From positions 96,001-160,000 of the IMG/VR virus record IMGVR_UViG_3300013121_000017: DNA of 64,000 nucleotides. One strand, written 5' to 3'. A program made the position numbers and the translations under genes. The notes below the pieces were generated by a model. The model saw only the letters and a program-made list of their open reading frames with translations. It made no database searches and was not told where the DNA came from. Within the stretch, counting starts at the first letter, position 1. Each line of letters opens with the position of its first letter. This DNA comes from a virus (Duplodnaviria > Caudoviricetes). This document shows positions 6,423 through 54,400 of the stretch, one piece after another.

Positions 6423-8792
6423 ATGGCGATTCTAAGGGGTTTTCCGCCGTCGAACACAATCAGCCCGTCAGTGCGTATCGCCGAGAGCGATCTCAGCTTT
6501 ATCGCACCGGAGCAGTCATTCCACCGTGCTGGTTTGGTCGGGTTCGCGTCGAAGGGTCCAATCAACAGCCCGACGACGATTGCAACTCAGCGTCAACTGA
6601 ACACGGTCTTCGGCTACCCGCACCCTGAAGTTGGTGACCCGTACCTGATCTACGCCGCGTCCCAGTACCTGCTGATCGCGAACGAACTGTTCGTGGTCCG
6701 CGTTGCTGACGTTGACCCGGTGTCGGATGAGCAAGCCACGACCGCGTCTGTGGACGTGCTGGCTGCCGGTTCGATCATCGACATCTTCTCGAACACAAAC
6801 GGCCCGTACAGCTTCACGGCTGACAGCTTCTTCCGCTGGAGACTGAACGGTGCGTTGAACCACAAGACCCTGGTCGTGTTGGCCGACGCAAACCGTCCCG
6901 CACCTGACACTGGCAACCCGTGGACCACTGTTGACCTCGTCGCAGAACTGAACTCTCAGGTTGACGCCGAGAACGATGGCGTCGAGTTCTACGTCAAGGG
7001 TTCCGGTGCGTCCGCCAAGGTCGGCTTCCGCACAACCTGGGCATACGGCCCGCAGGCCCAACTCGAACTGGTTTCGGTTCAGAGTGACGCCTACACGGTC
7101 ATCGGCATCGGTACGAGCATGACAGTCGGCGAAGTCGTCGGCGACACTGACCGCTACCCGAACGATGGATACACGCTCCAGAACGTCTGGAATTTCACCG
7201 GCTTGACCGGAATGTTCCTGAATGTTGTGGTGGATGGTACTGACAACGTCTTGATTGACGATGTCGTCCAGACCATCGACCTGAGCAACCTTGAAGGGGC
7301 ATCGTGGAACGGTACGCAGGTCGTACAAGAAATCAATGACCAGATCGCAACCCTGCCGGGTGGCTTCGAGGCAGCCCTTGTTGGCTTCAACATCGTCCTC
7401 AGAACTCTGCACAAGGGTCGGGACGCACGCATCCTCGTCAAGAGCGATTCGTCCGCCGACGCTGTACTCGGCCTTCCGAACACGACCGGCGTGGGCGACA
7501 GCCCGCTGGGTGTGACTGGCGATCCGGCCATCTACACCTTCGGTCGGGTTGACGGTGCTGAGAACACCACTGGCCAAGTCACCTTCACGATCACGGCTGA
7601 GTCGCCGGGCATCGAAGGCAACAACACAAGCGTCCTCATCAAGAACGACACCCTCCAGGGTACGTTCCAGATCGAGGTCTACAACAACGGCGTCCAGATG
7701 GAAGCCTGGGGTAACCTGACGAAGGATCAGTCGTCTCGCTTCTACGTCGAGACGTTCCTGGCCCTGGTTTCGGACTTCATCCGGGTCACTGACAACACCG
7801 CTGTTGGCGCACCGCCGGCTCCAACCGCCCTCACGGGCTTGGCTCTGTCGGGCGGCTCGGACGGAATTCCGAGTGATCCTGACAAACAGGACGAACTTTT
7901 GATCGGCAACCTACTCGGTTATACAGGCATCTACACCTTCTCCGAGCCAGAGCAGATCGACATCGACCTGATCGCAGTGCCGGGCCACGCCAGCACGTCC
8001 ATCGTGATGGCCCTGCTCGACCTGTGCCAGAACGTCCGTCAGGACTGCCTCGCCATCATCGATCCGCCGTTCGGTCTGACCGTTTCGGAAATCATCGCAT
8101 GGCAGAACGGATCGCACCCGCTGAACCTGACAAGGTTCGATAGCGACTTCGGCGCTCTGTACTGGCCGTGGGTCAAGATGCGGGACAATTACAACCGGGT
8201 TGACGTGTGGGTTCCGCCGTCTGGCTCGGTCATGGCGACCTACGCACGCAGCGACTTCTTGTCGGCTCCGTGGTTCGCACCAGCCGGTTTGACCCGTGGT
8301 GTGGTCCCCGGCATCACCGACGTGTTCAACCGGCCAACGCTGGGCGAACGCGACCTGATGTACGGCTACCGCAACTGTATCAACCCGATTGTGCAGTTCG
8401 CCGACGTGGACGGCTTCGTCATCTGGGGTCAGAAGACGCTTCAGCGTACTCCGACCGCTCTTGACCGCGTCAACGTCAGGAGACTCCTCTTCGTCTGCGA
8501 GAAGAGAATCAGGGTCGCCTCTCGGTCGCTTCTGTTCGATCCGCATGACGACATCTTCCGCGCGAAGTTCGTGGCTCTGGCCTCGGAGATCCTGCGTGAG
8601 ATTCAGGTTGGACGTGGTATCCACGCCTTCATCGTCAAGGCTGACACCGAACTGAACACGCCAGACGTGATTGACCGCAACGAGTTCCGCGCTAGGATCG
8701 GTATCCAGCCGGTGAGGGCCGCAGAATTCATGTTCATCGAGTTCTCCGTCCACAGGACTGGAAGCTTCGCTGAAAACGCCAATACCTTCTAA
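6423..8792 (+). CDS. Tail sheath protein (gp18-like)
   Basis: SPSVRIAESDLS, GFASKGP, ALYWPW, PPSG, WFAPAG, WGQKTL, RVNVRRL motifs. Confidence 0.97.
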   Translation: MAILRGFPPSNTISPSVRIAESDLSFIAPEQSFHRAGLVGFASKGPINSPTTIATQRQLNTVFGYPHPEVGDPYLIYAASQYLLIANELFVVRVADVDPVSDEQATTASVDVLAAGSIIDIFSNTNGPYSFTADSFFRWRLNGALNHKTLVVLADANRPAPDTGNPWTTVDLVAELNSQVDAENDGVEFYVKGSGASAKVGFRTTWAYGPQAQLELVSVQSDAYTVIGIGTSMTVGEVVGDTDRYPNDGYTLQNVWNFTGLTGMFLNVVVDGTDNVLIDDVVQTIDLSNLEGASWNGTQVVQEINDQIATLPGGFEAALVGFNIVLRTLHKGRDARILVKSDSSADAVLGLPNTTGVGDSPLGVTGDPAIYTFGRVDGAENTTGQVTFTITAESPGIEGNNTSVLIKNDTLQGTFQIEVYNNGVQMEAWGNLTKDQSSRFYVETFLALVSDFIRVTDNTAVGAPPAPTALTGLALSGGSDGIPSDPDKQDELLIGNLLGYTGIYTFSEPEQIDIDLIAVPGHASTSIVMALLDLCQNVRQDCLAIIDPPFGLTVSEIIAWQNGSHPLNLTRFDSDFGALYWPWVKMRDNYNRVDVWVPPSGSVMATYARSDFLSAPWFAPAGLTRGVVPGITDVFNRPTLGERDLMYGYRNCINPIVQFADVDGFVIWGQKTLQRTPTALDRVNVRRLLFVCEKRIRVASRSLLFDPHDDIFRAKFVALASEILREIQVGRGIHAFIVKADTELNTPDVIDRNEFRARIGIQPVRAAEFMFIEFSVHRTGSFAENANTF

Positions 8793-12750: not shown

Positions 12751-13621
12751 TCTTAGAGTCCACGAACGTATTGCTGTTCCTGATGGCTGGGATGGCCTTA
12801 TTCCGCCTCACCACCGCCTCCATGTCAAACAGCCAGTAGATCGTTGACAGCAGCGAAACAAAGGTCACATCAGTTGAGTTGGCAACCCTGGCGTCGATGT
12901 CGTCGTACATGTTGTCGCTGCCGAAGCGACCATTGGCTGCCGAGATGATCTTGGTCTGAATGTGGCTCTTGCGGTTGCCGCCAGCCCAGGCAGAGTCACA
13001 GTAGCTGGCATACTCCTTGAACTCCTGGCTGTCCTTGGTCAGCGAGAAAGAGCCATAGAAAGCGTCCGTAAGGGCTGCCATATTCTCCAGCACCCGGTAG
13101 TGGTTCAGGTTCTCTTCCGTCTCGGTTCCAAAACCAGCACAGCAGAGGATCTTACAACCATCGTCACCCTGACCGCAATGGCCGTGTGGAGTCAGTTTGA
13201 CTTCGTCCAATGCCGCCAATGCGATGAAATCTTCGAGGATCGTACCACTATCTTTTTCGTTCCCTTGCTGAAGCGAGTCCACGCCTCCATCAACCGCCAG
13301 GATGGTATCGACTTTGTGTTTGTTGATGATCTCTTGGTAGGCCCGCTTGACCAATCCTACACCCTGCCGGCCCACTGTGTAGTTCCCAACGAGGTTGTAC
13401 TTGTACCCAATGCTGTATTCTGGATAGTCCTCAATGTCGGCTTGCCGGTAGTGGAAGTTCATGTGCGGCGAACTGTTGACCAACACGAACCGCTTGGGGT
13501 AATGGGTCAGAAACGGCAGGCCGGTAAACACGTCGAACCCGCCGCCAACACCGACGACCATGATCACGTCGCCGTACTCAATCTTGGTTTCAGGGATGTT
13601 CAGTTTCTTGAGTGTCTTCAT
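12689..13621 (-). CDS. DUF1152-family protein
   Basis: GVGGGFDV and VDGGVDSLxxGxE...GTxxED motifs. Confidence 0.75.
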   Translation of the reverse strand: MKTLKKLNIPETKIEYGDVIMVVGVGGGFDVFTGLPFLTHYPKRFVLVNSSPHMNFHYRQADIEDYPEYSIGYKYNLVGNYTVGRQGVGLVKRAYQEIINKHKVDTILAVDGGVDSLQQGNEKDSGTILEDFIALAALDEVKLTPHGHCGQGDDGCKILCCAGFGTETEENLNHYRVLENMAALTDAFYGSFSLTKDSQEFKEYASYCDSAWAGGNRKSHIQTKIISAANGRFGSDNMYDDIDARVANSTDVTFVSLLSTIYWLFDMEAVVRRNKAIPAIRNSNTFVDSKIMLRQWLAGQSLRSHEPLPL

Positions 13622-39549: not shown

Positions 39550-41025
39550 CTACTTCAGATGAGTTGACAAGCCGCGAAACTGCTTGGTGAGTTTGTATTG
39601 CATACAAGGGAGGACAAACGACTTGATCAAATCGAAAAAGTCATCTCGGGCGTCTTTGTTTAGCCCCAACCACCAATACTCTGCCTCTCTTCCAGTGTTC
39701 TTGTTGAGTTTGGTTCCGTGCCGAACTTTGACATCCTTGATCCCCCATTCGTATGCAAGCCACTCAACCAGCAACTCGTTCTCCTGTTTAGAGAACGAAT
39801 GAGTCGCGATGTTGCAAGAATAGGTGTCAGAAGCACAAGACCCATCATCCATGTACCAGACCGCCAACCCCACAGGATGGTCGATTTCATCGAGCCAATT
39901 CATGCCAACTGTCTTCCGACCTTCTGCGCCGCAGTAAATGGTGTCATACGCAGAACGCATGCTTTCAAACCCAGTCGTATTGAACCTCCACTGCGGCCCG
40001 CCGTACCCGTCACGATTAGAGTGCCAGCAAGGAGGAGTGTCAACAAACCGTTTGAGTTGCTCGTAGAGCCAAAACACATAATCCTTCTGAGCTTCGCAAT
40101 GGTTGATTCTAAGACTGGCGTAATTTGGGGATCGCCTCAAGCCGCCATCGCCCAACAAAGTGCCATAAAAGATGTTCCTCTCCCATTCTGTAAGAGCCGA
40201 GGAAAAATTGGCCTTCTCACATCCGCAGTCTTGGACCCCCTGGAACCTGAGTTTATGAGCCGCGACAACACATTTGTTGCCACAGTCACACAAACACGAC
40301 CAGCCATAACTTTGGCCCTTCATCCAATGAGATGTTTTTTCCAACACCACCAGTTTGCCGAACCTCTGTCCTGTGAGATCGACAACCAAACCACCAGGGT
40401 TATCAGAAGTACCTCTTACTCCATGCCGACGCAAATATGCTGCTTGACAGCGAATCGTTCCATCGTCCGTAAAAGGCTTTCCGCAATTTGGCCGCAACAT
40501 CCTCCTGATACTGCGAGAGGCAAATGTACAATTCAAGCCGCATTCACAAACACAGTCCCAGGTCGCCTCCCCCCATTTGCTTGTCGCACTTCTACCGACG
40601 ATCTTGAGGCTGCCAAGTTGCTTGCCTGTCAGATCAATCAACACGGCAGCAGGCTTGTAGCACTTTCCACATGTCTTGGTATGACCCTGACGCAGAGAGT
40701 TGCCACAAGTAGAAAATTCATTGCCGCAGTCACACCTCATCAGGTATTTTCGTTGTCCATGTTTGTTGTAACCGTCTTGAGCCAAGACTACAAGTTTGCC
40801 ATATCTTTCCCCTGGATGCACGGTTGGACTCGGGCCGGGGTGCTGACCGCAGCCACAACTTTTTGTAACGCCGTTTCGTAAAGATTGACCCCAAGTGATT
40901 GTTATGTTGCCACAATCACATTGACACTCCCATCGGGGACGTGCTTGCCCGCCAGAGATCAGATTTTCGGCCCTCTTCAGGACAACCAATTTGCCGAATC
41001 TCATGCCGGTCAGGTCAATCAGCAT
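39550..41025 (-). mobile_element. Free-standing LAGLIDADG homing endonuclease with four N-terminal Cys-rich repeats
   Basis: FYGTLLGDG and LAVWYMDDG motifs; repeated DLTG.RFGKLVVL...CxCDCG; more AT-rich than its neighbours. Confidence 0.85.
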
Positions 41026-41575
41026 TAAATCTCTCCGCGACCAGCCGGCACATCTCGATGAAGTACCCCTGATCATAGATCCGCTTCATCATGTTGACAT
41101 CCTTGTGAATCCACTGAATGTTCCCGCGAACATACCCCTTTGACGAGTCGATTCTGTCAAGCGAGGCGGTGTGCGGATCTCCAGTCAGGCGACTGTAGTT
41201 GATCGTGAGTGGCAGGCCAGTAAGGGCGCACTTCCTGTCTTGTTGAAGGAACCGCTTCCATGCGTATTTCATCGTGATGTCAAACTCAACCGGAATTCGC
41301 CGTCCCTTGCCACCAGCAGCCCCGCGTTTGATCGCATCCCAATAGTTGCCGCTGATGTCGCCGTAACCACGCCACTGTTTGTGGCGTCGTCCCTTCCGAC
41401 GATGGCAACCACAACTCTTTGAGTTGCCCTGGACCAGATGGGTTGAAAGGACGGCTTTCTTGTTACCGCAGCGACACTCACACTCCCAGTAAGTGTCACG
41501 ACGACCCTCTACCCGCACACGTCGGAGAACCTTCCAGAACCCGACCGTCTTACCTGTGAAGTCTTGACGAAGCAT
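41015..41575 (-). mobile_element. Putative HNH-like homing endonuclease
   Basis: Same N-terminal repeat; CALTG...ASLDRIDSSKGY..GNIQW...VNMMK. Confidence 0.8.
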
Positions 41576-50329: not shown

Positions 50330-50331
50330 CT

Positions 50332-50481
50332 GGTCGGATGACAGTAGGACTACATTGCAAAACTGCTGGCCGAAAGGCCGTTCGGGTGCAAGTCCCGACG
50401 CTGCTCGCAAGGGTGGTGTGGTGAAACAGCAGACACGGCAGTCAGGGGAAACCCATGAAGTCTTGCGACTTTTTGCCGACC
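50332..50481 (+). ncRNA. Circularly permuted tRNA-mimic RNA E1 (YrlA/Y-RNA-like)
   Basis: Order: variable arm, T arm, acceptor closed by GCAA, D arm; enclosed by GGTCGG/CCGACC and GTAGGACT/AGTCTTGC. Confidence 0.65.
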
Positions 50482-50486
50482 TAAAT

Positions 50487-50570
50487 GCGGATGTGATGGA
50501 ACTGGTAGACTTCCAAGGTTGAGAGCCTTGGGCCTTTAGTGGCGTGTGGGTTCGAGTCCCACCATCCGCA
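50487..50570 (+). tRNA. tRNA-Leu(GAG)
   Basis: caagg-ttGAGag-ccttg. Confidence 0.92.
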
Positions 50571-50658: not shown

Positions 50659-50660
50659 CT

Positions 50661-50718
50661 CGACCGGGCCTGGATGCCCAACGGATTGGTGCGGGTTCGA
50701 TTCCCAAGCCGGTCGCCA
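50661..50718 (+). ncRNA. Miniature tRNA-like element ending in CCA
   Basis: CGACCGG/CCGGTCG-CCA; TTCGATT loop; no 7-nt anticodon loop. Confidence 0.5.
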
Positions 50719-50720
50719 AC

Positions 50721-50887: not shown

Positions 50888-50893
50888 CTGAAT

Positions 50894-50966
50894 GCCTACC
50901 AAGCTAATCTAGTGAAAGCGGATGCCTGAAGAGCATCATAGCCCGGAGCGTAACCGGGGGTAGGCA
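50894..50966 (+). tRNA. tRNA-Phe(GAA), atypical T loop
   Basis: gatgc-ctGAAga-gcatc; T loop AGCGTAA. Confidence 0.8.
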
Positions 50967-50968
50967 CT

Positions 50969-51095
50969 GGCCGGTATGCAGTAGGGGATTACATGAGCAA
51001 CAGCGACTCGGGGGGTTTCAAAGCTCCCTTGTGCCGGTGCGATTCCGGTGTCCTGGGGTAAAACCTGGGGTTATCTCCTGCAATTTTGATCGGCC
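50969..51095 (+). ncRNA. tRNA-mimic RNA E2 (same family as E1)
   Basis: GGCCGGT/ATCGGCC and GTAGGGGAT/ATCTCCTGC stems; T-like arm GCCGG-TGCGATT-CCGGT. Confidence 0.55.
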
Positions 51096-51099
51096 TTAT

Positions 51100-51172
51100 G
51101 GACAGCAAGCTAATCTGGTGAAAGCGGAGGTCTGAAAAGCCTCATAGCCCGGATCGAAACCGGGGCTGTCCA
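51100..51172 (+). tRNA. tRNA-Phe(GAA)
   Basis: gaggt-ctGAAaa-gcctc; T loop ATCGAAA. Confidence 0.85.
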
Positions 51173-51400
51173 CTACTTCTTCTGAACGAGCTTGCGAAGG
51201 TCGGAAGAAGACTTGGAAGGATTCCTGATGATCTCCTTGACGAGATCGTCGCCCTTGCCGTTGCTGACTTTTGACCAGACAGATAGCAACGTGGTACGGT
51301 TGTACTTCTCGGCGAGGCCGCGAATGCAGTTGACGAAAGACTCAACGCACTCAACGTCGCTGCTTGAAGTTTCGGTGAGGAACTGGTCGAATGTGTCCAT
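51173..51400 (-). CDS. Small protein antisense within the tRNA array
   Basis: MDTFDQFLTE start; TACATA 6 nt upstream; fills the gap between tRNAs. Confidence 0.65.
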   Translation of the reverse strand: MDTFDQFLTETSSSDVECVESFVNCIRGLAEKYNRTTLLSVWSKVSNGKGDDLVKEIIRNPSKSSSDLRKLVQKK

Positions 51401-51880: not shown

Positions 51881-51883
51881 CTT

Positions 51884-51953
51884 GATGGCCCCCGGATGGT
51901 GATTCGGTGGCAGATGCCAAAGCCGTAAGTCGGGTTCGACTCCCTGGTCATCA
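51884..51953 (+). ncRNA. Degenerate tRNA-like element
   Basis: GATGGCC/GGTCATC-A acceptor; GGG-TTCGACT-CCC T arm; no canonical anticodon arm. Confidence 0.45.
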
Positions 51954-51976
51954 CCTAGCACGAAAGCGAGAATGAA

Positions 51977-52306
51977 ATGGATCTGATCAAGTACGACGAC
52001 TTCGCCAAGCTGGACCTTCGGGTCTGCACCATCAAGGAGGCGTCAGCCGTCGAAGGGGCCGACAAGCTCGTCCTGCTCAAGCTGGACGATGGGACCGAGG
52101 CAGGCCGGCAGATCGTGGCCGGCATCAAGAAGCACTACTCGCCCGAGACGCTCATCGGCACACAAGTGATCGTCGTGGCGAACTTGGAACCGCGCAAGCT
52201 GCGTGGGATCGAGAGCCAGGGCATGTTGCTGGCAGCCAGCAACGGCGAGGAACTGGCCCTGTTGCAGCCGCAGAAGCTGATCGCGGCAGGCAGCAAGGTC
52301 GGATAA
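51977..52306 (+). CDS. tRNA-binding OB-fold protein (Trbp111/CsaA/MetRS C-terminal type)
   Basis: DDFAKLDLRV...GADKL...RQIVAGI...NLEPRKLRGIESQGMLLAA. Confidence 0.92.
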   Translation: MDLIKYDDFAKLDLRVCTIKEASAVEGADKLVLLKLDDGTEAGRQIVAGIKKHYSPETLIGTQVIVVANLEPRKLRGIESQGMLLAASNGEELALLQPQKLIAAGSKVG

Positions 52307-52787: not shown

Positions 52788-52874
52788 CGGAGATGGCTGG
52801 TATGCCGGGCGGCTTTATAGTATCCGATTGCGGCCTATGCCAGACTGTGTCAGGTTCGATTCCTACCACGCCCA
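52776..52874 (+). ncRNA. tRNA-like RNA with extended anticodon arm (copy 1)
   Basis: GGGTGTG/CACGCCC-A acceptor; TTCGATT loop; CCGGGCGGCTTT...CCGATTGCGG. Confidence 0.6.
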
Positions 52875-52877
52875 CTT

Positions 52878-52976
52878 GAGTGCGACTCTGGAGATGCTGG
52901 ACACACCGGGCGGCTTTTCATGGTTGCCGATTGCGGTTCCTGTTCGGCTGAGTTGGTTCGACTCCAACAGCACTCA
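52878..52976 (+). ncRNA. tRNA-like RNA with extended anticodon arm (copy 2)
   Basis: GAGTGC/GCACTC-A acceptor; GTTGG-TTCGACT-CCAAC; same internal motif as copy 1. Confidence 0.6.
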
Positions 52977-52980
52977 CTAT

Positions 52981-53139
52981 GTTCCGTTGGTGTAAAAAGG
53001 CGACGGATAGCGTCTGTCGCAGTCACTTGTAAACTGCCAGCACAGGAGGGTCGCGAACCTCCCCCGCAGTGTACCTTGGGACTCAGCACGGCTCCTCTGG
53101 AGGGAGACAGGGCAGGTGCGAACCCTGCACGGGACACCA
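52981..53139 (+). ncRNA. tRNA-like RNA with a large structured insertion and encoded CCA
   Basis: GTTCCGT/ACGGGAC-ACCA; GCAGG-TGCGAAC-CCTGC; about 80 extra nt in the D region. Confidence 0.55.
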
Positions 53140-53153
53140 TACAAAGGCAAGTT

Positions 53154-53324
53154 ATGAGCGTGATTCAACGCTGTGAGATCAAGCGGCACGAACCCTTCAA
53201 AGGTGATGCGTGTCCTGAATGCGGGAAGATCCAGGCGAACAGCCAGTTCGCCGGATGGCTTGTCATGGGATTCATCTTCCTGGCAGGCGCGTTGGCGTGG
53301 ATGTTCCTGGCCAAGAAGTTCTGA
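53154..53324 (+). CDS. Small membrane protein with CxxC
   Basis: CPECG followed by a hydrophobic helix. Confidence 0.5.
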   Translation: MSVIQRCEIKRHEPFKGDACPECGKIQANSQFAGWLVMGFIFLAGALAWMFLAKKF

Positions 53325-53328
53325 TTGA

Positions 53329-53400
53329 CCCACTCTGGTGTAGTGGTCTGCACATGATGCTGAAAACATCGGGGTCTGAGTTCGATTCTCAGGGGTGGGA
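53329..53400 (+). tRNA. tRNA-Phe(GAA)
   Basis: tgatg-ctGAAaa-catcg. Confidence 0.85.
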
Positions 53401-53402
53401 CT

Positions 53403-53530
53403 GACCGGATGACGACAGGGATTACACTCTCGAAAAGTGTTCTACGCAAGTAGATGTAGGTTCGATTCCTACCGTCGCAAGACGAGGTGGATATTGGCTT
53501 GCCACTACGTCTCTGACATTTTTGCCGGTC
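53403..53530 (+). ncRNA. Circularly permuted tRNA-mimic RNA E3 retaining a Ser(CGA) anticodon arm
   Basis: GACCGG/CCGGTC; ACACT-CTCGAAA-AGTGT; variable arm; T arm; CGTC-GCAA-GACG; D-like arm. Confidence 0.65.
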
Positions 53531-53536
53531 TAATTT

Positions 53537-53662
53537 GACGGGGTAGCTTAACGGTAGAGCGCTAAAAGCGATCTCAGCAACTTGTTGCCCGAAAGGGATG
53601 ATCCGTTGGGATTACATTCCTCTGAAAAAGGAGAGGTACTGGTTCGACTCCAGTCCCCGTCA
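53537..53662 (+). ncRNA. tRNA-Phe(GAA) carrying the E1-E3 module as an insertion (E4)
   Basis: Normal acceptor, D and T arms; about 50-nt insert between the D and anticodon arms. Confidence 0.7.
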
Positions 53663-53715
53663 CTCAAAACAGATGCCCGCAACCTCCACTACATAACATG
53701 TAATTAGGAGGAACT

Positions 53716-53949
53716 ATGATCAACCCGTGGGCAGACCTAGCAAAGATGAAACGTGACTTCCCCATCGGCGTTCTCGTCGTTGTTGACGAGGATGTCACAG
53801 ATGGCGCGGACGACATCGGAGGAATGATCCTCAAAGTCATTGGCTACGAGATCGAGCAAGGATGGCTAGAACTGGTCAGTGAGAACGGCAGAGAATTCGT
53901 TCTCTACCCAGACGAGATCACAAGACACTATGAAAGCCAAGTGTGCTAG
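53716..53949 (+). CDS. Small hypothetical protein, paralog of 49878
   Basis: AGGAGG SD. Confidence 0.7.
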   Translation: MINPWADLAKMKRDFPIGVLVVVDEDVTDGADDIGGMILKVIGYEIEQGWLELVSENGREFVLYPDEITRHYESQVC

Positions 53950-53956
53950 ATAGTGC

Positions 53957-54400
53957 ATGGACTTCCGACACTGGCTAGAAGCAACTGAACAGCCCGAACC
54001 GAATCCGCTCCCGCCCGAAGCAAAGATCGAGCGGTCGCAGGGCGACGGCTGGAAGATCACGACCCCTTACGGCTACATCGACTACCGCCACAACCCAGAA
54101 GACGGCAACAACGAGATCTGGTGGGTGGAATCGAAAGTACGCGGCAAGGGCTATGGCAAGAAGCTCGTTGACCTAATGCAAATGGCCCACCCCGCAGCCA
54201 GCATCGGTTGGGGAGTGACGACGCCGGAAGGTAAAGACCTCCGCGACAGTTGGCACAAGAAGAACCCAGGAGTTGAAGCATACAACGGCGCGTTTGAGGG
54301 ACAGTTCGACCCCTCGGGCAACAACTACGGAGAAGACGAATCGGACGAAGACTTCGAGGATGAAGACGAGGACTGGGAGGACGAAGATGATGACTTTTGA
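53957..54400 (+). CDS. GNAT-like acetyltransferase with acidic tail
   Basis: VRGKGYGKKL acetyl-CoA motif; TAGATA 4 nt upstream. Confidence 0.55.
   Translation: MDFRHWLEATEQPEPNPLPPEAKIERSQGDGWKITTPYGYIDYRHNPEDGNNEIWWVESKVRGKGYGKKLVDLMQMAHPAASIGWGVTTPEGKDLRDSWHKKNPGVEAYNGAFEGQFDPSGNNYGEDESDEDFEDEDEDWEDEDDDF

What the first reader, a model, noticed from the sequence alone, without database searches (positions are those of the whole stretch)
53537..53662. tRNA-Phe with the mimic module inserted: the un-permuted form of E1-E3
Normal tRNA ends, D arm, TTCCT-ctGAAaa-AGGAG arm and T arm, but between the D and anticodon arms lies ATCTCAGC-AACTTGTTG-CCC-GAAA-GGG-ATGATCC-GTTGGGATTAC. This is the E1-E3 module with its halves swapped and its outer helix closed by GAAA. 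The two forms are circular permutations of one fold, suggesting an evolutionary intermediate, a chargeable tRNA/Y-RNA hybrid, or an excisable insert.
Basis: partly seen in the sequence, partly recalled or inferred. Interest (0 to 1): 0.75.

Follow-up and report, generated by a model that had tools for sequence, protein, structure and literature searches.

The report
tRNA-shaped Y RNA with open ends
A giant phage carries a tRNA-shaped RNA gene with normal tRNA ends and an internal hairpin that, in related phages, marks the small RNAs encoded beside the RNA-binding protein Ro60, which makes it a previously undescribed, rearranged form of a bacterial-type Y RNA.

Summary
Window 53537-53662 has a 7-bp acceptor stem, D arm, T arm and a Phe-like GAA hairpin, interrupted by a 55-nt segment (53562-53616).

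- **tRNA shape:** ARAGORN calls a 71-nt tRNA-Phe only once that segment is removed.
- **Same module as E1-E3:** the segment carries the stem/internal-loop/stem module of the neighbouring permuted elements, with the strand order swapped.
- **Conservation:** ten homologues in huge-phage tRNA arrays show 95% pairing, and 24 of 32 pairs have compensatory changes.
- **True permutation:** a related phage holds the same Phe-like body in the permuted topology. Rotated at its acceptor loop, it aligns colinearly with H.
- **Link to Ro60:** the module occurs 42 times on the Ro60 strand and once on the other strand, in 15 of 39 phage Ro60 loci. Open-ended H-type copies abut Ro60 genes.

H is therefore most likely an open-acceptor circular permutation of a YrlA-like Y RNA, probably matured like a tRNA.

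Points against or unresolved:
- The "anticodon" hairpin is not conserved across the family.
- No Ro60 gene lies in this 261-kb record, which is about 52% complete.
- Charging is untested, and excision is unlikely.

The scan had noted this stretch only on this same genome.

The parts
53537..53543 (+). Acceptor stem, 5' strand (GACGGGG)
   Evidence: Pairs with 53655-53661. In ten homologues, 5 of 7 acceptor pairs show compensatory changes.
53546..53560 (+). D arm GCTT-AACGGTA-GAGC, with A14, A15, G18, G19, U20 and A21
   Evidence: 2 of 4 stem pairs covary. Nucleotide 15 covaries with the nucleotide before the T stem, as a Levitt pair, in 9 of 10 homologues.
53561..53570 (+). G26 plus an A-rich linker (CTAAAAGCG)
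   Evidence: An A-rich linker of about 9-10 nt is present in most H-type copies that keep the small hairpin. The copy without that hairpin has only about 4 nt.
53571..53578 (+). Module inner helix, strand equivalent to the 3' strand of E1-E3 (ATCTCAGC)
   Evidence: Pairs with 53605-53612. 6 of 8 pairs covary in ten homologues, and a U-A pair and a U.G pair are invariant.
53579..53587 (+). Module internal loop, 3'-type side (AACTTGTTG), ending in TTG
   Evidence: Ends in TTG in 8 of 10 H-type copies (the other two end CTG and TGT) and in E1-E3.
53588..53597 (+). Outer helix reduced to 3 bp and closed by a GNRA tetraloop (CCC-GAAA-GGG)
   Evidence: All 3 pairs covary (CCC/GGG, GGC/GCC, TCC/GGA, TCG/CGA). 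Loops are GAAA, GCAA, TTCG, TACG or longer.
53598..53604 (+). Module internal loop, 5'-type side (ATGATCC). Its ATG corresponds to the A-N-G of the Rsr motif GNCGAAN0-1G.
   Evidence: Starts with ATG in 7 of 10 H-type copies (ATA or AAT in the three L095 copies), in E1-E3, and in about 40 modules beside phage Ro60 genes, where it reads CGA|ATG (motif from PMC4201824).
53605..53612 (+). Module inner helix, strand equivalent to the 5' strand of E1-E3 (GTTGGGAT)
   Evidence: See 53571-53578. The GGGA/TCTC core with a G.U pair is shared with E2, E3 and the Ro60-adjacent modules.
53613..53616 (+). TACA junction. With the preceding T, it matches the YUAY motif of YrlA.
   Evidence: Invariant in 10 of 10 H-type copies and present in E1-E3. 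YUAY is described in PMC4201824.
53617..53633 (+). Anticodon-arm-like hairpin TTCCT-CTGAAAA-AGGAG (GAA). It sits where YrlA has its V stem-loop.
   Evidence: ARAGORN reads it as the anticodon arm after the insert is removed. The UGAAAA loop is kept in G001 and in the permuted G002 element. The hairpin is degenerate or absent elsewhere.
53634..53654 (+). Variable loop AGGT and T arm ACTGG-TTCGACT-CCAGT
   Evidence: 4 of 5 T-stem pairs covary and G53-C61 is invariant.
53655..53662 (+). Acceptor stem 3' strand (CCCCGTC) and discriminator A. No CCA is encoded.
   Evidence: The phage encodes a CCA-adding-type nucleotidyltransferase elsewhere in its genome.
53403..53530 (+). E3: a permuted (closed-acceptor) Y-RNA-like element with the same module. 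Its 3' end lies 6 nt before H.
   Evidence: Its orthologue lies next to the H orthologue in G001.
50332..50481 (+). E1: a permuted element with the same module on a Leu(CAA)-like body
   Evidence: Its orthologue in G001 is shown.
50969..51095 (+). E2: a permuted element with the same module
   Evidence: Its orthologue in G001 has a compensatory G-C to C-G change in the inner helix.
53329..53401 (+). Canonical tRNA-Phe(GAA) immediately upstream of E3
   Evidence: ARAGORN and Rfam. The same tRNA-Phe / E3 / H order is found in G001.

Best explanation
H is a real, conserved non-coding RNA: a Y-RNA-like molecule built on a tRNA scaffold. It is the open-acceptor circular permutation of the YrlA-like elements E1-E3.

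What the sequence shows:
- The acceptor, D and T arms fold as in tRNA.
- The 46-nt hairpin at 53571-53616 is a stem / internal-loop / stem module, followed by TACA.
- In related huge phages this module is the hallmark of the small RNAs encoded beside Ro60 (Rsr) genes.
- At its outer-stem/loop junction it carries the remnant (GGG|AUG) of the Ro60-recognition motif CGA|AUG.

Inferred mechanism:
1. H is transcribed as part of the tRNA array.
2. Its ends are cut by RNase P and the tRNA 3'-end enzymes. This cut also releases the 3' end of E3.
3. It receives CCA.
4. It then binds a Ro60-type protein through the internal hairpin, while the tRNA-like body engages tRNA-binding factors. It would thus act as a tether or gate, as proposed for YrlA.

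The GAA hairpin sits where YrlA has its V stem-loop. It is probably not used for decoding.
For: Shown here:
1. tRNA core. ARAGORN calls tRNA-Phe after the 55 nt are removed.
2. Structure. In ten homologues 95.1% of cells are paired, 24 of 32 pairs have double changes, and 0 of 500 shuffles reach this. The module inner helix has 6 of 8 covarying pairs and the outer helix 3 of 3. The Levitt 15:48 pair covaries in 9 of 10.
3. Same module as E1-E3. The descriptor hits only E1-E3 in 261 kb, against 0.05 per shuffle.
4. True permutation. The G002 permuted Phe-bodied element aligns colinearly with H after rotation (z about 8.8), and the best cut points fall in its acceptor loop.
5. Link to Ro60.
   - The complete 533-kb phage G006 carries several H-type copies and encodes a Ro60 homologue inside its tRNA array. 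Scores: vWA_Ro60 1.4e-13; D. radiodurans Rsr structure 2nvo 3.8e-18.
   - A module-bearing tRNA-shaped RNA lies 0.8 kb downstream of that gene, on the same strand.
   - A second phage Ro60 gene has a module-only hairpin 40 nt upstream that contains the exact motif GTCGAATG.
   - In 39 phage Ro60 loci the strict module descriptor hits 42 times on the Ro60 strand and once on the other strand.
   - H-type copies lie 0.6-1.2 kb from Ro60 genes in L095, L096 and L127.
6. Processing context. H starts 6 nt after E3. There are no promoter or terminator signals above chance. The phage encodes a CCA-adding-type enzyme.

From the literature:
- M. smegmatis YrlA is cut by RNase P and receives CCA while bound to Rsr (PMC4201824).
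- Phage phiLo Ro60 binds stem-bulge-stem RNAs through CGAA (PMC12135203).
Against: - No Ro60 or TROVE gene was found in the 261-kb record or in the closest relatives G001-G003. All of these are about 50-70% complete fragments.
- In H the outer stem is only 3 bp. The GNC part of the Rsr motif is replaced by the tetraloop, so Ro60 binding by H itself is an inference.
- The Rfam YrlA model does not score H or E1-E3 (best 17.6 bits, against a gathering score of 69). It also gives only 32.5 bits on the Bxz1 RNA next to its Ro gene.
- The proposed fold is not the computed minimum-energy structure.
- There are no expression data.
Confidence: 0.6

Rival explanations
1. H is a working tRNA-Phe. The module is an extra arm tolerated by PheRS, EF-Tu and the ribosome, in the way a class II long variable arm is tolerated. 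It might mark the tRNA, shield it from host anticodon nucleases, or recruit Ro60 to it.
For: - H has a perfect 5-bp stem and a 7-nt CUGAAAA loop with U33, G34 A35 A36 and A37.
- It also has A73, U20, U8, G18 G19, G53-C61 and an A15:U48 pair.
- The UGAAAA loop is conserved in G001 and G002 although the stems around it changed.
- The match to the Phe identity set rests on my own knowledge of E. coli and T. thermophilus PheRS.
Against: - Two canonical tRNA-Phe(GAA) genes already lie in the array.
- In the G001 orthologue the hairpin stem is 4 bp and the T stem has a bulge.
- Other family members have loops GUU, UAC or UCU with discriminators that do not fit. Some have 2-3 bp stems, no hairpin at all, or the hairpin on the other side of the module.
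- Two members have C55 in the T loop.
Confidence: 0.15
2. The module binds some partner other than Ro60, or the RNA works without a partner. For example, it could be a decoy or sponge for host tRNA-targeting defence nucleases, or a processing and stability element for the array.
For: - No Ro60 gene in G000-G003.
- H lacks the full GNCGAA motif.
- 24 of the 39 Ro60 loci gave no strict module hit.
- The hairpin loops differ between copies (GAA, GUU, UAC, UCU), as decoys for different nucleases might.
Against: - The 42:1 strand bias and the direct adjacency to Ro60 genes.
- The exact Rsr motif in Ro60-adjacent copies of the same module.
- The records that lack Ro60 are fragments.
Confidence: 0.15
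3. The 55-nt segment is an excisable insert, a non-canonical tRNA intron. Its removal would yield a 71-nt tRNA-Phe plus a free or circular module RNA.
For: Removing 53562-53616 leaves a sequence that ARAGORN accepts as tRNA-Phe.
Against: - There is no bulge-helix-bulge or group I features, and no Rfam intron match.
- No enzyme is known in bacteria or phages for a cut at the 26/27 junction (own knowledge).
- One family member has no anticodon hairpin to restore.
- Another has the module in the variable-arm position.
- The module helices are under purifying selection together with the body.
Confidence: 0.05
4. H is a decaying by-product of recombination between a tRNA gene and an E-type element, with no function.
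For: - It lies directly after E3.
- It is not the minimum-energy fold.
- It is not detected by tRNA finders.
Against: - It is conserved with compensatory changes across phages whose sheath proteins are 77% identical or less, and in unrelated huge phages.
- H-type copies also occur in two other Ro60-encoding phages (three in tandem in one; L096 duplicates L095), 0.6-1.2 kb from the gene.
Confidence: 0.05

Closest known systems
YrlA (Y RNA-like A) of bacteria and mycobacteriophages (Chen et al. 2014, PMC4201824; structure 6CU1, bioRxiv 10.1101/312249; Rfam RF02553)
   Same: - Two modules: a stem / internal-loop / stem that carries the Rsr motif, and a tRNA-like domain with T arm, D arm (GTAGCTYA..GGTAGAGC), a 7-bp acceptor stem and tRNA tertiary pairs.
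- A YUAY (here UUAC-A) element after the stem, followed by an optional V stem-loop.
- Read around the circle, the order of elements is identical.
- Relatives of H lie within about 1 kb of Ro60 genes on the same strand.
   Different: - The topology is reversed. In H the acceptor stem is open, with ordinary tRNA ends, and the Ro60-type stem is closed by a tetraloop and shortened to 3 bp.
- A 10-nt A-rich linker separates the D arm from the stem.
- The V-position hairpin looks like a complete Phe anticodon arm.
- The Rfam model does not detect it.
- No Ro60 gene lies in this record.
RNase P-cleaved, CCA-tailed M. smegmatis YrlA (two halves held together while bound to Rsr; PMC4201824)
   Same: The end product would be the same shape: a tRNA-like body with a free 5' end and a CCA 3' end, plus a Ro60-binding stem.
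   Different: - There the shape arises by cutting a permuted precursor into two pieces.
- H encodes it as a single chain, so no cut in an acceptor loop is needed.
D. radiodurans Yrn1
   Same: A Y RNA whose tRNA-like parts run in the un-permuted D-to-T order, with a stem-loop in the anticodon-arm position (PMC4201824).
   Different: In Yrn1 the RNA ends form the Ro60-binding stem, at the acceptor position. In H the ends form a plain tRNA acceptor stem and the Ro60-type stem is internal.
Thermus phage phiLo Yrl1/Yrl2 with phage Ro60 (PMC12135203)
   Same: - Phage-encoded stem-bulge-stem RNAs next to a phage Ro60 gene, recognised through CGAA.
- The G006 Ro60 homologue matches this protein's structures (9kop, 9l5y).
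   Different: The phiLo RNAs have no tRNA body. H has a full tRNA-like body and a shortened outer stem.
Circularly permuted tRNA genes of red algae and an archaeon (Soma et al. 2007, cited in bioRxiv 10.1101/312249)
   Same: They show that tRNA-shaped RNAs exist in both circular permutations.
   Different: Those are processed through a bulge-helix-bulge motif into ordinary tRNAs. No such motif is present here, and both topologies appear to be end products.

Membership tests
YrlA-type Y RNA | Scores at or above the Rfam RF02553 gathering score (69 bits) | tested here: not met
   The best score in the genome is 17.6 bits, spanning the E3 T arm to the H D arm. The model is permuted relative to H. 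It also gives only 32.5 bits on the Bxz1 RNA beside its Ro gene, and no hit in 11 phage Ro60 loci.
YrlA-type Y RNA | tRNA-like domain with T arm, D arm, acceptor stem and tRNA tertiary pairs | tested here: met
   All three helices covary. The 15:48 pair covaries in 9 of 10, and G53-C61, G18, G19 and U8 are kept.
YrlA-type Y RNA | Rsr/Ro60 motif GNCGAAN0-1G in a stem-bulge-stem | tested here: inconclusive
   - H has only GGG|ATG.
- E1 has GTCGGATG (one mismatch).
- The same module beside Ro60 genes reads CGA|ATG, including an exact GTCGAATG.
YrlA-type Y RNA | Conserved YUAY after the stem, beginning the V region | tested here: met
   TTAC-A in H. TACA is invariant in 10 of 10 H-type copies and present in E1-E3.
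YrlA-type Y RNA | Encoded within about 4 kb of a Ro60 orthologue on the same strand | tested here: inconclusive
   Not met in this 261-kb fragment or in G001-G003. Met for homologues in G006, L095, L096 and L127.
YrlA-type Y RNA | RNA ends in the Ro60-binding stem, with the acceptor stem closed by a loop | tested here: not met
   H has the opposite connectivity. E1-E3 do meet this feature.
YrlA-type Y RNA | Physically bound by Ro60/Rsr | not testable with these tools
   Needs EMSA or co-immunoprecipitation.
Elongator tRNA-Phe | Recognised as a tRNA by standard detectors | tested here: not met
   ARAGORN finds no gene. Rfam tRNA gives 23.9 bits, below the 29-bit threshold. It is recognised only after 55 nt are deleted.
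Elongator tRNA-Phe | 5-bp anticodon stem and 7-nt loop conserved among orthologues | tested here: not met
   H itself has them. The G001 orthologue has 4 bp, the G002 element has 3 bp, and other members are degenerate, absent or displaced.
Elongator tRNA-Phe | Phe identity nucleotides (G34 A35 A36, A73, U20) | tested here: met
   Present in H and in the G001 orthologue. The identity set is from my own knowledge, not a tool.
Elongator tRNA-Phe | Aminoacylation and use in decoding | not testable with these tools
   Needs a charging assay.
Intron-containing or permuted pre-tRNA | Bulge-helix-bulge motif or group I intron at the insert borders | tested here: not met
   No such motif by inspection and no Rfam intron match at E up to 5.

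The most novel reading that the evidence does not exclude
Open-ended Y RNAs such as H are matured, CCA-tailed and perhaps aminoacylated like tRNAs while carrying a Ro60-binding hairpin. They would then physically couple a Ro60 (and PNPase) surveillance particle to tRNA-handling machinery such as synthetases, EF-Tu, the ribosome or tRNA-targeting defence nucleases. The coexistence of both topologies on the same body would also record how Y RNAs and tRNAs interconvert, by tandem duplication and trimming.
Probability: 0.15. Interest if true: 0.85.

Novelty: new variant of a known kind. Interest (0 to 1): 0.7.

Why it matters
- **Function of the tRNA-like domain.** Bacterial Y RNAs are known as tRNA mimics whose acceptor end is closed, and the role of the tRNA-like domain is an open question. 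A natural single-chain form with ordinary tRNA ends makes two ideas directly testable: that Y RNAs can enter tRNA pathways (RNase P, CCA addition, perhaps charging), and that the tRNA fold is the effector-binding part.
- **Origin of Y RNAs.** Finding the same body in both connectivities in related phages gives a concrete example of the proposed tRNA origin of Y RNAs.
- **Annotation gap.** A whole class of Ro60-associated RNAs is embedded in huge-phage tRNA arrays. The Rfam YrlA model did not detect it in the loci tested here, and ARAGORN did not call H.

Tried and rejected
- Rfam scan of the array at E up to 5: only a sub-threshold tRNA hit on H.
- GenBank phage collection, blastn of 52900-54100: no match.
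- Neighbouring 260-aa protein as a probe for relatives: none.
- First strict H pattern in viral contigs: none.
- nhmmer with 17-19-nt strand profiles: too weak to rank E1-E3. E2 came 6th and E3 11th, at E above 20. It was replaced by the structural descriptor.
- TROVE, vWA_Ro60 and tblastn searches for Ro60 in G000-G005: nothing.
- Array proteins of the window, including the tRNA_bind protein, are shared only with G001 and not with the distant phages that carry H-type RNAs. No conserved neighbouring protein partner emerged.
- K-turn, box C/D, RNase III-site and bulge-helix-bulge readings of the module were considered from the sequence and dropped for lack of the defining nucleotides.
- ARAGORN's intron mode offers a tRNA-Pro(TGG) with a 37-nt intron, using the GAA hairpin as a long variable arm. 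I rejected it because its anticodon stem has hardly any pairs.

Full report
**Context.** The window is bases 96001-160000 of a 261,680-bp IMG/VR virus record, estimated by CheckV at 52% complete. It is a contractile-tailed jumbo phage: a tail sheath gene lies at 6423-8789. Between 49.6 and 57.3 kb lies a tRNA array of 16 ARAGORN genes, all Leu, Tyr, Phe or Ser. The whole record holds 17 tRNAs and a tmRNA.

**The observation.** The parts, in order:
- a 7-bp acceptor stem with A73
- U8 A9
- a canonical D arm, then G26
- 55 nt (53562-53616)
- a 5-bp/7-nt hairpin with CUGAAAA
- AGGU
- a canonical T arm

ARAGORN calls nothing in the 126 nt. It calls a 71-nt tRNA-Phe(GAA) when the 55 nt are deleted. 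Rfam tRNA reaches only 23.9 bits on the 3' part.

The inserted segment contains, in this order:
- an 8-bp helix (ATCTCAGC / GTTGGGAT)
- an asymmetric internal loop (AACTTGTTG / ATGATCC)
- a 3-bp helix closed by GAAA
- TACA after the helix

**Relation to E1-E3.** E1 (50332-50481), E2 (50969-51095) and E3 (53403-53530) fold with these features:
- a terminal helix
- an internal loop whose 5' side starts ATG and whose 3' side ends TTG
- an inner helix with a GGGA/TCTC-type core
- (T)ACA
- an interior that is a permuted tRNA with its acceptor closed by GCAA

I wrote a descriptor using only features that are near-invariant in H-type RNAs and ran it in the E topology. It finds exactly these three elements in the whole genome. 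It gave one hit in 20 dinucleotide shuffles.

**Homologues.** Relatives were found through the sheath protein.
- **G001** (77% sheath identity) has the same tRNA-Phe / E3 / H order. Its H copy keeps every element. It has two compensatory acceptor pairs and a GCAA tetraloop. Its hairpin is shortened to 4 bp but still reads UGAAAA.
- **G001 also tests the fold.** The local hairpin that makes the computed minimum-energy fold of H differ from the proposed fold is broken there by two uncompensated changes.
- **Further copies.** A covariance model and one pattern scan found more full-length copies, all inside dense tRNA arrays: two in the 533-kb phage G006, one in a 463-kb contig and one in a 4.6-kb contig.
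- **Copies next to Ro60 genes.** Four more lie beside Ro60 genes.

On the ten-sequence alignment:
- 95.1% of cells pair.
- 24 of 32 pairs have changes on both sides.
- No shuffle or slid register comes close.
- Acceptor, D, T, outer and inner helices all covary.
- One U-A pair and one U.G pair of the inner helix never change.

The Levitt 15:48 pair covaries in 9 of 10 copies, so the tRNA L-shape is under selection.

**Circular permutation.** G002 carries an element with the same body and junction: the D arm, an A-rich linker, inner helix CTCTCAGC / GTTGAGGG, TTAC, a hairpin with AUGAAAA, AGGUC and a T arm. Its ends, however, lie at the outer helix, and its acceptor stem is closed by an 11-nt loop.

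Cut in that loop and rotated, it aligns end to end with H:
- 89 of 141 positions are identical.
- The score is 106.5, against 58.0 unrotated and 49.7 +/- 6.5 for shuffles.
- The best rotation points all fall in the acceptor loop.

The two topologies are therefore real permutations of one RNA. A tandem duplication followed by trimming would convert either into the other. The direction cannot be told.

**The small hairpin is not a conserved anticodon arm.** Its loops read GAA, GAA, GUU, UAC and UCU, and its stems are 2-5 bp. Other variants:
- One G006 copy has no hairpin at all, so the module directly takes the anticodon-arm place.
- Another has the GAA hairpin before the module, which puts the module in the variable-arm position.
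- In E1 the module joins a Leu-like body in the anticodon loop.

Read around the circle, H has the same order of elements as YrlA. On that reading the hairpin is the counterpart of the YrlA V stem-loop and TTAC-A is the YUAY motif (PMC4201824). Most copies that keep the hairpin also have the A-rich linker. So the alternative, that the hairpin stacks under the D stem as an anticodon arm, remains possible for H.

**Link to Ro60.** No TROVE or Ro60 vWA gene is present in this record or in G001-G005. The evidence for a link comes from other phages:
- **G006.** This phage is complete and encodes a 621-aa Ro60 homologue in its tRNA array. Scores: vWA_Ro60 51.5 bits; D. radiodurans Rsr 2nvo 3.8e-18; Ro60 9nen 1.2e-9. 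A module-bearing tRNA-shaped RNA lies 0.8 kb downstream on the same strand.
- **A homologous Ro60 gene in another phage.** A module-only hairpin lies 40 nt upstream of it. Its outer-stem/loop junction reads GTCGAATG, the exact Rsr motif GNCGAAN0-1G.
- **The 39 loci.** A two-protein alignment retrieved 39 phage Ro60 loci. A strict module descriptor hits 42 times on the Ro60 strand and once on the opposite strand, in 15 loci. The hits often abut the gene and mostly read CGA|ATGC.
- **The motif.** The ATG that begins the 5' loop in H and E1-E3 is thus the A-N-G of the Rsr motif. E1-E3 read CGG|ATG, a variant also seen beside Ro60 genes. H keeps only GGG|ATG.
- **Rfam.** The YrlA model detects none of these RNAs.

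**Literature.** In the papers I could search:
- YrlA is described only with a closed acceptor stem.
- M. smegmatis YrlA is cut by RNase P and CCA-tailed into two Rsr-bound halves (PMC4201824).
- A phage Ro60 binds stem-bulge-stem RNAs through CGAA and engages host PNPase (PMC12135203).

I found no description of a single-chain, open-acceptor Y RNA.

**Conclusion.** H is best read as an open-acceptor Y RNA of a phage-specific YrlA-like family.
- **Inferred, not shown:** maturation by tRNA enzymes. The context is consistent: H starts 6 nt after E3, there are no promoter or terminator signals above chance, and the phage has a CCA-adding-type enzyme.
- **Also inferred:** binding to Ro60.
- **Open:** charging with phenylalanine.
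- **Unlikely:** excision of the insert.

Noticed in passing
window 50332-50481, 50969-51095, 53403-53530 with their flanks: Each permuted element is bracketed by tRNA-shaped genes at 1-6 nt. The upstream tRNA ends at 50330, about 50966 and 53401. The downstream tRNA or H starts at 50487, 51100 and 53537. RNase P and tRNA 3'-end processing could therefore define the Y-RNA ends.
   Followed up: partly
window 50893-50968: A tRNA-Phe-like sequence with a CUGAAGA loop and a non-canonical T loop. It resembles the tRNA-Phe at 51100-51173 but is not called by ARAGORN. It sits immediately before E2.
   Followed up: no
window 50660-50720, 51882-51960, 52790-52970, 52981-53139: Further tRNA-like pieces with T-arm motifs that no detector calls.
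   Followed up: no
window 51977-52306 (+): A 109-aa protein with a tRNA_bind domain (Trbp111/CsaA type, PF01588, 2.6e-29) is encoded inside the tRNA array. It is conserved in G001 but not seen in the distant arrays examined.
   Followed up: partly
L086 14757-14889 (G006): A tRNA-shaped RNA with a CUGAAAA hairpin before the module, so the module lies in the variable-arm position. It is 0.8 kb downstream of the phage Ro60 gene.
   Followed up: partly
L081 3609-3707 (G006): An H-type RNA without any anticodon-like hairpin. The module replaces the anticodon arm, and its inner helix covaries (TCTCTTC / GAAGGGA).
   Followed up: partly
L070 about 12975-13135 (G001): A module-like 5' strand (GACGG ATGAC ... 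GGACTACA) lies just upstream of, and may pair into, the region that ARAGORN calls tRNA-Leu(TAA). This may be another hybrid.
   Followed up: no
L089-L127 (39 phage Ro60 loci): In the 11 loci scanned with Rfam and in G006, the phage Ro60 gene is embedded in a large tRNA array on the same strand, and one locus also has a tmRNA. Rfam YrlA annotates none of the adjacent Y-like RNAs.
   Followed up: partly
G000:C1:201810-202253 (-), outside the window: A 479-aa open frame with a PolyA_pol / CCA-adding nucleotidyltransferase head domain (9e-27).
   Followed up: no
window 39553-41076 (-): A 508-aa open frame with a LAGLIDADG_2 endonuclease domain lies next to a B12-type ribonucleotide reductase gene.
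   Followed up: no
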